Source: an uncultured Bdellovibrionales bacterium (GTDB lineage Bacteria; Patescibacteriota; Minisyncoccia; Moranbacterales; UBA2206). Taken from it: a stretch of 62,270 nt of DNA. The DNA lies in NCBI GenBank assembly GCA_964538685.1, contig CAZIFD010000004.1, forward strand, positions 1 through 62,270, written 5' to 3'. The translations under genes and the position numbers were made by a program. A model generated the notes under the pieces. The model was not told where the DNA came from, searched no databases, and saw only the letters and a program-made list of their open reading frames with translations. Positions 60,296 to 60,541 of this stretch are shown here, in pieces (within the stretch, counting starts at the first letter, position 1; each line of letters starts with the position of its first letter).

Positions 60296-60383
60296 CTCGC
60301 CGAGTTTCGGCGGGCGGAAACGCGGAGCGGAGCTATTCGAGCATTTTTCGTTCAAAAAAAGTTCGAGCTTCGTTCAGCAATTG

Positions 60384-60541
60384 CGACCAGATTAAACTTT
60401 TTTCAAAATCAGGGGCGATTGGTTGCTCGCTCGCCCCGCCTGCGGCGGGTCTCGCTTCGCAAAAAGCCCTGTATTTCGGAATTAAATCGTAGGGTCGGAC
60501 AAATTCAAATTCGGCTTTTCGGGAAAGCAAACGGCGGTTCG
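60384..60541 (-). repeat. Left arm of perfect 158 bp inverted repeat bracketing LSR-2 (partner 62064-62221); contains inverted attP-like junction
   Basis: cgaccagatt...ggcggttcg is the exact reverse complement of 62064-62221. Confidence 0.97.

What the first reader, a model, noticed from the sequence alone, without database searches (positions are those of the whole stretch)
60333..60541. A second, intact attP-like site sits inverted just upstream of each recombinase
Seen: on the minus strand 60541 to 60333 reads as the recombinase 3' end, crossover GTCG and native tail, i.e. an unrecombined attP. The same holds for 187 to 6 in element 1. It is inverted relative to both the tRNA junction and the 48919 junction. 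Inference: recombination in the 158/137 bp arms would flip the LSR gene and give it the ARTxF tail without excision. Recombination between L and L' would flip the 11.5 kb cargo block. It may also be a landing pad or the partner strand of a fold-back att.
Basis: partly seen in the sequence, partly recalled or inferred. Interest (0 to 1): 0.75.

Follow-up and report, generated by a model that had tools for sequence, protein, structure and literature searches.

The report
Spare inverted attP beside serine recombinase
Each of the two large serine recombinase genes in this window is bracketed by a perfect inverted copy of its own 3' end that carries an unrecombined attachment site. This layout turns out to be the hallmark of a very large, apparently undescribed family of tRNA-integrating mobile islands whose recombinase module looks built to fold back on itself.

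Summary
60384-60541 is a 158-nt perfect inverted copy of the recombinase 3' end (62064-62221). It runs on through the GTCG core into an intact "native tail" (60383-60333). Element 1 has the same layout (51-187 / 1777-1913).

It is neither chance nor a one-off artefact:
- 115 of 123 evaluable related loci from independent assemblies share the layout.
- Median arm identity is 99%, against 83% to the nearest other element, so the arms evolve in concert.

The full layout is host | T-arm, cargo, T-arm' | P-arm', recombinase, P-arm | tRNA. Small contigs with two attP-type sites fit a free circular form carrying one long inverted repeat with attP in each copy.

Integration replaces a conserved C-terminal helix of the recombinase. 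The inverted site keeps the only intact copy.

A new feature emerged. The recombinase segment holds about 7-13 nested short perfect inverted repeats, 20-fold enriched, with compensatory changes and no strand bias. The long repeat is the closing stem of this fold.

Flipping is geometrically valid. However, more than 70 integrated copies show one orientation and only one truncated copy is flipped. The function is therefore inferred, not shown.

The parts
60384..60541 (-). P' arm of element 2: inverted perfect copy of the recombinase 3' end (52 codons), forming the P half of the internal attP-type site.
   Evidence: 158 nt, 100% complementary to 62064-62221. Translation matches the recombinase C-terminus. 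In run X1 the repeat unit has depth 21.2 against 9.2 for unique sequence.
60333..60383 (-). Native tail of the recombinase (QLLNEARTFFERKMLE*) and T half-site of the internal attP.
   Evidence: Translation. 85% identical to 48919-48966. The motif x[LI]L[ND]x[AV]RT[YF]F is conserved in 72 related loci. CTCGAAC sits at attP-type spacing. Predicted as a helix with pLDDT about 83 in the homologue P0001.
60384..60387 (.). Core (CGAC = GTCG) of the internal, unrecombined attP-type site.
   Evidence: This is the boundary of identity among the three sites 48919-22, 60384-87 and 62218-21.
60542..60694 (+). Recombinase upstream region. It contains four short perfect repeats that pair with distant parts of the gene.
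   Evidence: The pairs are 60575-88/62049-62, 60609-23/62004-18, 60624-37/61114-27 and 60654-67/61064-77. They are kept with compensatory changes.
60695..62269 (+). Large serine recombinase gene of element 2. Its last 16 codons are tRNA antisense sequence.
   Evidence: Pfam PF00239, PF07508 and PF13408. Homologue P0001, 93% identical to this protein with its native tail restored, matches SPbeta integrase 9dxh at E = 7e-11. More than 6,000 homologues at E <= 1e-50.
62064..62221 (+). P arm of element 2: recombinase 3' end, forming the P half of the attL-type junction.
62219..62270 (-). 3' part of a tRNA (B' half-site), cut by the window end. Its CCA end overlaps the core.
   Evidence: Rfam RF00005, model positions 20-71. 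The read-through tail GCPELNRDYTNPNRA matches the tails of loci that abut tRNA-Pro (L029, L031).
48919..49140 (+). attR-type junction (host | GTCG | T1 arm) and outer T arm of element 2.
   Evidence: 84% inverted match to 60387-60172. A run X1 contig runs from about 10 kb of host DNA through 48919 to 49039.
60172..60383 (-). Inner T arm (T2' plus non-coding GC-rich module) abutting the P' arm.
   Evidence: Equivalent T-arm pairs of 130-430 nt that abut the P' arm exactly occur in at least 19 related loci.
59685..59900 (-). Small XRE-type HTH gene (71 aa), the first cargo gene next to the inner T arm.
   Evidence: Sequence. A homologue lies within 900 nt of the P' arm, always on the minus strand, in 27 of 56 loci.
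60840..61015 (.). Nested helix 60840-54 / 61001-15. It stands for the nested set, which also includes 61130-44/61291-305, 61306-20/61989-62003, 61477-92/61650-65 and 61776-90/61934-48.
   Evidence: Perfect 15-nt inverted repeats. 92% of cells are paired across 74 sequences, with double changes such as AT36/GC24.
51..187 (-). P' arm of element 1: inverted perfect copy of the recombinase 3' end.
   Evidence: 137 nt, 100% complementary to 1777-1913. Translation.
6..50 (-). Native tail of the element 1 recombinase (YLYNQARTYFTKDF*) and T half-site.
   Evidence: The window starts 50 nt outside the arm, as many related contigs do.
372..1973 (+). Large serine recombinase gene of element 1, 45% identical to that of element 2. 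It reads into tRNA-Lys.
   Evidence: It holds seven perfect nested inverted repeats of at least 13 nt.
1777..1913 (+). P arm of element 1. Its last 5 nt (TGGTG) overlap the CCA end of tRNA-Lys (1909-1984, minus strand).

Best explanation
What it is (shown). 60333-60541 is the second, unrecombined attP of a mobile island driven by a large serine recombinase (LSR). The family layout is: host | T arm, cargo, T arm' | P arm', LSR, P arm | tRNA.

In the free form the P and T arms are contiguous. The element then carries one long inverted repeat (about 460-615 nt) with an attP core in each copy. The repeat separates the LSR segment from the cargo segment.

The core lies inside the LSR reading frame, 16-17 codons before the stop. 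Integration through the gene-side copy into the CCA end of a tRNA (mostly tRNA-Pro) does two things:
- it replaces a conserved C-terminal helix of the LSR with tRNA-antisense residues;
- it leaves the other copy intact and inverted, about 150 nt upstream of the gene.

How it most likely works (inferred). The two arms pair or recombine with each other within one molecule. Two results point to this. The arms evolve in concert. And the LSR segment carries a nested set of short perfect inverted repeats that would zip the 1.5-kb spacer together and bring the arms side by side when the DNA is single-stranded.

An exchange between the arms, by homologous recombination or by template switching at a replication fork, would invert the LSR segment and rejoin the gene to the stored native tail. 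This would give a rare switch from a 'locked', tail-less integrase to the full-length enzyme. The near-absence of flipped integrated copies would then mean that this state is short-lived (it excises or is counter-selected).
For: Layout and conservation:
- Perfect arms in both elements.
- The same layout in 115 of 123 evaluable loci. Median arm identity is 99.1%, and 37 of 93 pairs are identical.
- In 79 of 86 elements the two arms are more alike than either is to the nearest arm of another element (99.1% against 83%).
- T-arm pairs abut the P' arm exactly.

It is an attP:
- Hybrid junctions at 48919 and 62221.
- A 5-bp outward shift of the CGAAC motif in the T half relative to the tRNA half, as in PMC3783163.

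The tail matters:
- Second codon positions are conserved while Leu codons vary.
- The tail is predicted as a helix (residues 508-524, pLDDT about 83) behind a disordered linker. The crossover falls at W508-S509|Q510.

Free form:
- L082 has attP-type sites on both sides of the LSR. Its arms differ at 10 positions, which should let an assembler tell them apart (my inference).
- L162, L164 and L098 begin and end inside inverted copies of one long repeat.
- About 29 of 120 protein clusters have the native tail (25 by a motif pattern, 4 more by eye). All are on contigs of at most 9.4 kb, whereas tRNA-tailed versions occur on contigs up to 636 kb.

Fold-back:
- 3.52 perfect inverted repeats of at least 13 nt per kb in LSR interiors, against 0.19 in cargo and 0.16 in host DNA.
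- 0-1 in four phage LSR genes, against 7 in each LSR here.
- 133 pairs are 80.9% paired, against 35-48% when the partner is slid. There are 461 double-change cells, against 124-168 when slid, and 0 of 500 shuffles reach the observed values.

Flip:
- One flipped copy exists: L111, tRNA-Pro(+) | P' | 5'-truncated LSR -> P | T.
Against: - No intact flipped integrated copy was found. This covers 70 complete arm pairs with a tRNA at the right arm, including 18 pairs of at most 120 nt (short enough for the assemblers' longest k-mers to span, my inference), 19 with diverged arms, and contigs of 0.6-6 Mb.
- Cargo orientation is also fixed (27 of 27), so frequent crossing-over is unlikely.
- Where the arms differ, the differences look neutral: 75 synonymous against 175 non-synonymous codons, at codon positions 91/109/130. 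The spare copy is therefore not visibly kept as coding sequence.
- 88 of 91 LSR genes are intact even when the arms have diverged. The tail-less enzyme may well be functional, and a conserved HTH gene could supply directionality control without any flip.
- No read-level data could be obtained. Only k=31 contigs were available and no long-read run was found.
- Circularity of the free form is inferred from contig geometry, not shown.
- Native-tail contigs with identical arms could be arbitrary paths through an assembly graph.
Confidence: 0.5

Rival explanations
1. The site matters only in the free form. The inverted attP would be the second arm of a long inverted repeat whose role lies in the extrachromosomal circle, for example isomerisation or amplification as in the yeast 2-micron plasmid, or stabilisation of the attP region by copy correction. 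In the chromosome it would be a passive leftover that decays.
For: - Contigs fit a circle with one repeat of 460-615 nt.
- Native-tail proteins occur only on small contigs, and those contigs pass P|T without a branch. This suggests the free form can outnumber the integrated one in some samples.
- Arm identities range from 100% down to 80%, with neutral-looking differences, as expected for decay after integration.
- Orientation is fixed in integrated copies.
Against: - No replication gene was found in any cargo examined.
- By the accepted model, LSRs do not recombine attP with attP (PMC3783163).
- P arms are usually more alike than the T arms of the same element (here 100% against 84%), which suggests homogenisation continues after integration.
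- It does not explain why nested repeats are confined to the LSR segment.
Confidence: 0.2
2. Fold-back attachment site on single-stranded DNA. The LSR module would pass through a single-stranded stage (DNA uptake, transfer or replication). The two arms would then anneal into a duplex stem that rebuilds attP, or primes or templates its repair. The nested stems would compact the loop. On this reading the inverted site is the partner strand of the stem, not a second site.
For: - Nested, non-crossing helices close on the P'/P stem, with compensatory changes.
- There is no G:T excess over A:C in the helices (403:479) or in the arms (71:84). This points to DNA, or to either strand, rather than to a sense RNA.
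- The elements lack transfer and replication genes, yet occur in many phyla.
Against: - Serine recombinases cut both strands of duplex sites. By my own topological reasoning, recombination of a hairpin stem with attB would leave a broken chromosome with hairpin ends, not the observed product.
- The cargo lacks nested repeats, which argues against a general need for single-strand folding.
- There is no direct evidence of a single-stranded form.
Confidence: 0.17
3. Control at the RNA level, as in the fold-back inhibition of IS10/IS50. Transcripts entering from outside would contain both arms and form a long duplex that blocks or destroys the recombinase message. The nested helices would tune translation.
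For: - The helices link the 5' leader to coding regions.
- The repeats are confined to the recombinase gene.
- Keeping transposase or recombinase expression low is a common need (established knowledge on Tn10).
Against: - Neither the helices nor the arms tolerate G:U more than A:C.
- Arms of 137-158 nt with no mismatch, and preservation of the whole attP with an open tail and a stop codon, are not needed for this purpose.
- No Rfam family matches.
Confidence: 0.08
4. Assembly artefact, or the terminal inverted repeats of an insertion sequence that moves on its own.
For: - Both copies sit at the ends of the window.
- Many related contigs break about 50 nt outside the arm.
- The arms exceed the k-mer lengths these assemblers commonly use (my inference).
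Against: - The layout is the same in well over a hundred contigs, whose names point to several different assemblers (my inference), including contigs of 0.64 and 6.2 Mb.
- Junction contigs and a two-fold depth of the repeat appear in an independent assembly.
- The flanks are never arbitrary. They are always a T tail on one side and a tRNA on the other, so the 1.8-kb unit does not insert by itself.
Confidence: 0.03

Closest known systems
Serine integrases of temperate phages and islands (A118/LI, SPbeta SprA, Bxb1, phiC31)
   Same: - Same three-domain protein.
- Short attP and attB sites that share only a small core.
- Hybrid attL and attR junctions.
- The DNA motif sits 5 bp further from the centre in attP than in attB.
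   Different: - attP lies inside the recombinase reading frame and is present twice, in inverted orientation, as part of a long perfect repeat.
- The target is the CCA end of tRNAs.
- No phage genes are present and there is no match in IMG/VR.
- The gene is full of nested inverted repeats, which four phage LSR genes lack.
Yeast 2-micron plasmid (FLP/FRT within 599-bp inverted repeats)
   Same: - A circle divided by one long perfect inverted repeat.
- The recombination site lies inside each copy.
- The recombinase gene lies in one of the two unique segments.
- The copies are kept identical.
   Different: - FLP is a tyrosine recombinase that does recombine the two sites.
- The plasmid has an origin and partition genes, whereas no replication gene is seen here.
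- Isomers are not demonstrated here.
- This element integrates into tRNA genes.
SSV-type archaeal integrases and integration-dependent immunity of mycobacteriophages (BPs, Brujita)
   Same: attP lies within a gene of the element, so integration changes that gene's product. For SSV1 the integrase gene is split (PMC8371274, listed). For BPs, integration removes a C-terminal tag (from my own knowledge).
   Different: - Those enzymes are tyrosine recombinases.
- They keep no spare inverted copy of the displaced 3' end.
- Here only the last 16-17 codons are swapped.
Invertible segments that switch protein C-termini (Mu G / P1 C segments, shufflons)
   Same: Inverted repeats lie within coding sequence, so an inversion would exchange the C-terminal end of a protein.
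   Different: - Those systems use small serine invertases or Rci acting on both sites, and both orientations coexist.
- Here the recombinase gene is itself the invertible segment, and one orientation dominates.
Folded single-strand recombination sites (integron attC, CTX phage attP, IS200/IS605 ends)
   Same: Complementarity rather than sequence is conserved, with compensatory changes.
   Different: - Those sites are 60-150 nt, strand-specific, and used by tyrosine or HUH enzymes.
- Here the fold spans 1.8 kb, shows no strand bias, and surrounds a serine recombinase gene.

Membership tests
Large serine recombinase (serine integrase) | N-terminal resolvase catalytic domain, recombinase domain and zinc-ribbon domain, in that order | tested here: met
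   PF00239 (residues 6-153), PF07508 (174-262) and PF13408 (275-330) in the 60695-62269 product. The element 1 protein is 45% identical to it.
Large serine recombinase (serine integrase) | Sequence relationship to structurally solved members | tested here: met
   Homologue P0001 (93% identical) matches SPbeta integrase 9dxh at E = 7e-11 and A118 integrase 4kis at E = 5e-5.
Large serine recombinase (serine integrase) | Long coiled-coil insertion after the zinc ribbon | tested here: inconclusive
   The AlphaFold2 model shows helices 340-385 and 391-414. Their packing was not inspected.
attP/attB site-specific integration | The element is bounded by hybrid junctions that share a short core with an attP | tested here: met
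   Host|GTCG|T1 at 48919, P|GTCG|tRNA at 62218-21, and P|GTCG|T2 at 60384-87 in inverted orientation.
attP/attB site-specific integration | The zinc-ribbon DNA motif lies 5 bp further from the centre in attP half-sites than in attB half-sites | tested here: met
   CTCGAAC at +16..+22 in 46 T halves, against TTGAAC/TCGAAC at +12..+17 in the tRNA halves. The rule is taken from PMC3783163. It was checked only for the T/B' pair.
attP/attB site-specific integration | Recombination activity and directionality (attP x attB only; attL x attR needs a directionality factor) | not testable with these tools
   This needs enzyme assays.
tRNA-integrating genomic island | Inserted at the 3' end of a tRNA gene, which the element restores | tested here: met
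   tRNA-Lys 1909-1984 is intact, with its last 5 nt supplied by the arm. 70 related loci abut a tRNA, 52 of them tRNA-Pro.
Site-specific DNA inversion switch (Hin/Gin/Cin type) | Both orientations of the segment occur | tested here: not met
   At the level of consensus assemblies there is one orientation in more than 70 integrated copies, and one truncated flipped copy. Read-level mixtures could not be examined.
Site-specific DNA inversion switch (Hin/Gin/Cin type) | Small serine invertase acting on two identical inverted sites with an enhancer | tested here: not met
   The enzyme is a 524-aa LSR. In the chromosome the two sites are an attP type and an attL type.
2-micron-like plasmid | Circle with one long inverted repeat that carries the recombination site, with the recombinase gene in a unique segment | tested here: inconclusive
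   The contig geometry of L162, L164 and L098, and the two attP-type sites of L082, fit this. Circularity was not shown.
2-micron-like plasmid | Own replication origin and replication or partition genes | tested here: not met
   The cargo consists of restriction-modification, toxin-antitoxin, transport and unknown genes plus a small HTH gene. No Pfam hit to a replication protein was found in the cargo examined.
Insertion sequence with terminal inverted repeats | The unit bounded by the repeats inserts on its own, so its flanks vary | tested here: not met
   The left flank is the conserved T tail in 72 loci and the right flank is a tRNA in 70 of 93 loci.
Structured RNA / fold-back inhibition | Helices tolerate G:U on the transcribed strand more than A:C | tested here: not met
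   G:T 403 against A:C 479 in the nested helices, and 71 against 84 in the arms. No Rfam match.
Folded single-strand DNA recombination site | Complementarity is conserved through compensatory change | tested here: met
   75 of 133 pairs have double changes, with 461 double-change cells against 124-168 in the slid controls, and 0 of 500 shuffles reach the observed values.
Folded single-strand DNA recombination site | A single-stranded intermediate exists and is the substrate | not testable with these tools
   No data on the physical form of the element.

The most novel reading that the evidence does not exclude
The recombinase module would be a self-folding DNA hairpin. In a single-stranded state its 1.8 kb would zip up through nested stems into a long duplex stem that carries attP. 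A serine recombinase element would then use, or repair and regenerate, its attachment site and its own C-terminus from a folded single strand. This would be a serine-recombinase counterpart of integron attC and CTX-type folded sites, and a route for gene-poor islands to spread among ultra-small bacteria without transfer genes.
Probability: 0.17. Interest if true: 0.9.

Novelty: new variant of a known kind. Interest (0 to 1): 0.72.

Why it matters
1. It defines a very large family of serine-recombinase islands: more than 6,000 homologues at E <= 1e-50, at depths of hundreds to thousands in groundwater metagenomes. The family has a fixed, previously unnoticed layout. That layout probably explains why so many MAG contigs of Patescibacteria, Omnitrophota and others break next to tRNA genes.

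2. Integration rewrites the recombinase's own C-terminal helix while a spare copy is kept in inverted orientation. This is a testable new way to couple the integrated or free state to enzyme form.

3. A protein-coding gene that carries about ten covarying DNA-level stems with no strand bias is unusual. It points to a physical fold-back of the module.

4. The family offers many natural LSR/attP/attB sets with a simple, conserved tRNA target, which may interest users of integrase tools.

Tried and rejected
- Exact-protein look-ups of both recombinases found no record.
- IMG/VR holds no relative, so a phage origin was dropped.
- Rfam found nothing in 48800-62270 except the tRNA.
- The promoter and terminator scan of 59900-60800 was uninformative.
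- Read-level phasing failed. Run X1 is held only as k=31 contigs that break at the arms. No run holds L001, which has diverged arms, in full. No Nanopore run was listed.
- X1 contigs show no empty-site or circle junction.
- A synonymous/non-synonymous test of the arms gave a neutral pattern and so did not support coding constraint on the spare arm.
- Comparing intact with broken recombinase genes was uninformative, because 88 of 91 are intact.
- P and T half-sites showed no clear symmetry by eye.
- Seven literature searches and two papers read found no description of this layout. The library does not cover subscription journals.
- L026 and L031, with a tRNA on both sides, were considered as evidence that the second attP is active. 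They were set aside: L026 ends inside the repeat and could be a graph path, and L031 has arms only 80% alike.
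Full report

The window ends carry two large serine recombinase (LSR) genes, 372-1973 and 60695-62269 (Pfam Resolvase, Recombinase and Zn_ribbon_recom for the 60695-62269 product). The two proteins are 45% identical.

Each gene is bracketed by a perfect inverted repeat:
- 51-187 / 1777-1913, 137 nt;
- 60384-60541 / 62064-62221, 158 nt.

The right arm is the 3' end of the gene. Each gene then reads across a short core (TGGTG or GTCG) into a tRNA on the opposite strand. 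These are tRNA-Lys at 1909-1984 and a partial tRNA at 62219-62270.

Read on the minus strand, the left arm encodes the same last residues. It then continues into a different tail that ends in a stop: QLLNEARTFFERKMLE* in element 2 and YLYNQARTYFTKDF* in element 1.

A third copy of the tail, 84-85% identical, lies in direct orientation at 48919, next to a host gene. So 48919 is attR-like, 62221 is attL-like, and 60384-60387 is an intact attP-like site in inverted orientation.

Contigs assembled independently from run X1 support every junction. They give the repeat unit twice the depth of the unique recombinase body.

**It is a family hallmark**

Scans of one genome per species and of metagenome contigs returned 160 related loci at 57-97% protein identity.

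- Of 123 loci with enough sequence on both sides, 115 have an inverted copy of the recombinase 3' end upstream of the gene.
- In 93 complete arm pairs the median length is 148 nt and the median identity 99.1%. 37 pairs are identical.
- 70 pairs abut a tRNA on the minus strand: Pro 52, Ala 5, Gln 3, Trp 3, Lys 2 and five others once each.
- In 72 pairs the upstream copy continues into a tail with the motif x[LI]L[ND]x[AV]RT[YF]F.
- In 79 of 86 elements the two arms are more alike than either is to the closest arm of any other element (median 99.1% against 83%). The arms therefore evolve in concert.

**There is a second repeat pair**

This pair, the T arms (130-430 nt), begins exactly where the P' arm ends and flanks the cargo. 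The general layout is:

host | T, cargo, T' | P', LSR, P | tRNA

The cargo is variable: restriction-modification and other defence genes, toxin-antitoxin pairs, transporters and unknown genes. A small XRE-type HTH gene lies next to the inner T arm, always divergent from the LSR (27 of 27 detected). No replication or transfer gene was seen, and no relative is present in IMG/VR.

**The site is a real attP by an independent criterion**

I aligned 46 sites on the core. The T half has CTCGAAC at +16..+22. The tRNA half of the hybrid junction has the T-loop sequence TTGAAC/TCGAAC at +12..+17. This 5-bp outward shift is the one that Rutherford et al. found between attP and attB for the zinc-ribbon motif (PMC3783163).

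The tail also appears to be under protein-level selection. Second codon positions are the most conserved, and Leu codons vary.

An AlphaFold2 model of a 93%-identical homologue that has the native tail predicts:
- a disordered linker at residues 487-506;
- a helix at 508-524 with pLDDT about 83.

The crossover falls at W508-S509|Q510. Integration therefore removes exactly that helix.

**A free form probably exists**

About 29 of the 120 best protein clusters end in the native tail (25 by a motif pattern, 4 more by eye). All of them are on contigs of at most 9.4 kb, while tRNA-tailed versions reach 636 kb.

L082 has attP-type sites on both sides of the gene. Its arms differ at ten positions, which should let an assembler tell them apart (my inference).

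L162, L164 and L098 start inside the inverted P' arm or just upstream of the gene. They run through the LSR, one full P+T repeat of 460-615 nt and the cargo, and end inside the inverted copy of the same repeat. This is the geometry expected of a circle with one long inverted repeat whose second copy was collapsed by the assembler.

Circularity itself is inferred. Where the arms are identical, such contigs could also be arbitrary graph paths.

**Orientation is fixed in the chromosome**

No intact integrated copy has the mirror arrangement. This includes:
- 18 arm pairs of at most 120 nt that have a tRNA(-) at the right arm (short enough to be spanned by the longest k-mers these assemblers commonly use, 127-141, my inference);
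- 19 such pairs with diverged arms;
- contigs of 0.64 and 6.2 Mb.

One copy is flipped, but it has lost its first 88 or so codons: L111, tRNA-Pro(+) | P' | truncated LSR -> P | T. Two loci have a tRNA on both sides (L026, L031). I do not rely on them.

In the free form the two attP copies appear nearly identical (identical over the 273-nt arms of L146, and over 38 nt past the core in L082). The one-sided outcome therefore needs an asymmetry that acts after integration or comes from sequence context. I cannot say which.

**A new feature: nested inverted repeats**

The recombinase segment is packed with short perfect inverted repeats that nest without crossing.

- Element 2 pairs: 60575-88/62049-62, 60609-23/62004-18, 60624-37/61114-27, 60654-67/61064-77, 60840-54/61001-15, 61130-44/61291-305, 61301-20/61989-62008, 61477-92/61650-65 and 61776-90/61934-48.
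- Element 1 has seven such pairs, which by my comparison of three of them lie at other positions in the gene.
- Across 91 elements the median is 6 per LSR interior, against 0 in an equal length of flanking DNA.
- The density is 3.52 per kb in LSR interiors, 0.19 in cargo and 0.16 in host DNA.
- Four phage LSR genes have 0-1.

I tested the helices on an alignment of 75 segments, using 133 pairs taken from element 2:

| Measure | Observed | 3' partner slid by 1-3 columns | Shuffles |
|---|---|---|---|
| Cells paired | 80.9% | 35-48% | 75.9% (0 of 500 reach the observed value) |
| Pairs with a change on both sides | 75 | 41-53 | 52.6 (0 of 500) |
| Cells with a double change | 461 | 124-168 | 175 (0 of 500) |

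The structure came from one of the aligned sequences. This inflates the percentage paired, but not the count of double changes.

G:T pairs are no more frequent than A:C pairs, either in the helices (403 against 479) or in the arms (71 against 84). This argues against a sense-strand RNA structure. It favours DNA-level pairing, or pairing of either strand.

The long P'/P repeat is the outermost helix of this set.

**Interpretation**

Shown:
- the site is the element's second attP, and one arm of a family-wide inverted repeat;
- integration swaps the recombinase's C-terminal helix, and the spare arm keeps the only intact copy;
- the arms co-evolve;
- the recombinase segment is self-complementary in a conserved way.

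Inferred: the arms pair or recombine within the molecule. The nested stems would help this by bringing the arms together in single-stranded DNA. A crossover or a template switch would then invert the segment and restore the full-length enzyme.

The absence of flipped integrated copies means one of two things. Either the event is rare and its product short-lived, or the repeat serves the free form or a single-stranded stage instead. I give about 0.85 to the structural statement and about 0.4-0.5 to the flip as its function.

Rivals:
- a role only in the free form (0.2);
- a fold-back single-strand site (0.17);
- RNA-level control (0.08);
- artefact or insertion sequence (0.03).

**Comparison with known systems**

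The enzyme and its sites meet the tested criteria for serine integrases. Several features differ from the cases I know or could find in seven literature searches:
- attP lies inside the gene;
- attP is duplicated as a long inverted repeat around the gene;
- the target is the tRNA CCA end;
- the gene contains nested stems.

The nearest analogies are:
- the 2-micron FLP/FRT repeat, for the layout;
- SSV-type integrases and integration-dependent immunity, for attP lying within a gene;
- the Mu G and P1 C segments, for C-terminal switching by inversion;
- folded single-strand sites such as attC, for conserved complementarity.

The element fails at least one defining feature of each, so I file it as a new variant of LSR-driven tRNA-integrating islands.

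Noticed in passing
window 48919-60387: The cargo of element 2 is a composite of two modules, S1 (49247-54758) and S2 (55119-60079). Each is flanked by its own perfect inverted repeat: 49020-49246/54759-54985 (227 nt) and 54968-55118/60080-60230 (151 nt). The two join head-to-head at an 18-nt palindrome stem (caaagcaaaacaattttc) that occurs three times, at 49020, 54903/54968 and 60213/60278. Each module begins with an HTH gene (tblastn matches at 59688-59900 and about 54369-54557). This looks like a fusion of two related elements at the palindrome.
   Followed up: partly
window 48967-49270, 54674-55145, 59996-60330: A GC-rich non-coding module (the T-arm interior, with GGAATTCC-centred G/C runs) is repeated three times. 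In groundwater and lake metagenomes it is covered at depths of hundreds to about 2,000, so it is conserved across the family. There is no Rfam match and its function is unknown.
   Followed up: partly
window 50237-50590 (minus strand): An IS200/IS605-type Y1 transposase gene (PF01797) lies inside cargo module S1. It sits among two radical-SAM genes, an aspartate decarboxylase-like gene and a weak NUDIX match. S1 has about 50% GC, against about 36% for the host.
   Followed up: no
window 60471/60472 and 62133/62134; L111 about 8090-8125: Groundwater and lake runs carry a variant with a 33-nt in-frame insertion (CCCTCCTGCGCTTTTTCAGCTACGGCGGGTAAA). It is seen at the left-arm position in X2 and X12 and, as its reverse complement, at the matching right-arm position in X6, which fits concerted change of the arms.
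   Followed up: partly
window 1 and 62270: The window starts 50 nt outside the left arm of element 1 and ends 49 nt outside the right arm of element 2. Many related contigs start 47-53 nt outside the arm (L004, L005, L009, L025, L033). The window ends are probably contig ends caused by these repeats, so element 1's cargo is not in the window.
   Followed up: partly
window 48500-62270 in run X1: Contig depth is 14.3-14.6 for the host flank and S1, but 9.2-11.8 for S2 and the recombinase. A contig leaves the sequence at 60325 into unrelated DNA. Part of the population may carry a different right-hand part of the element.
   Followed up: no
L074 and L080 (contig CAWAHF010000004.1, 6.2 Mb): One Bacteroidales contig holds two copies of the family about 2 Mb apart, both next to tRNA-Pro. 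Each has 148-nt arms that are 100% identical within the copy, but the tails differ between copies. The window itself also holds two family members (45% identical) at tRNA-Lys and a Pro-like tRNA.
   Followed up: no
P arms, e.g. window 60429-60446 and 91-113: Each P arm contains a small GC-rich hairpin (CCCCGCC-TGC-GGCGGGT in element 2; TGGGCGGCAC-GCA-GTGCCGCCCA in element 1). Its stem appears to covary across the family and its loops are often TTCG or GNRA-like. It lies in the codons of the predicted disordered linker.
   Followed up: no
L161 1836-2057 / 5647-5863 / 6937-7134: A native-tail contig has two successive cargo modules, each ending in a T-arm copy (86-88% alike), followed by glycosyl-hydrolase genes. 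This may be a flipped integrated copy or tandem cargo. It was not resolved.
   Followed up: partly
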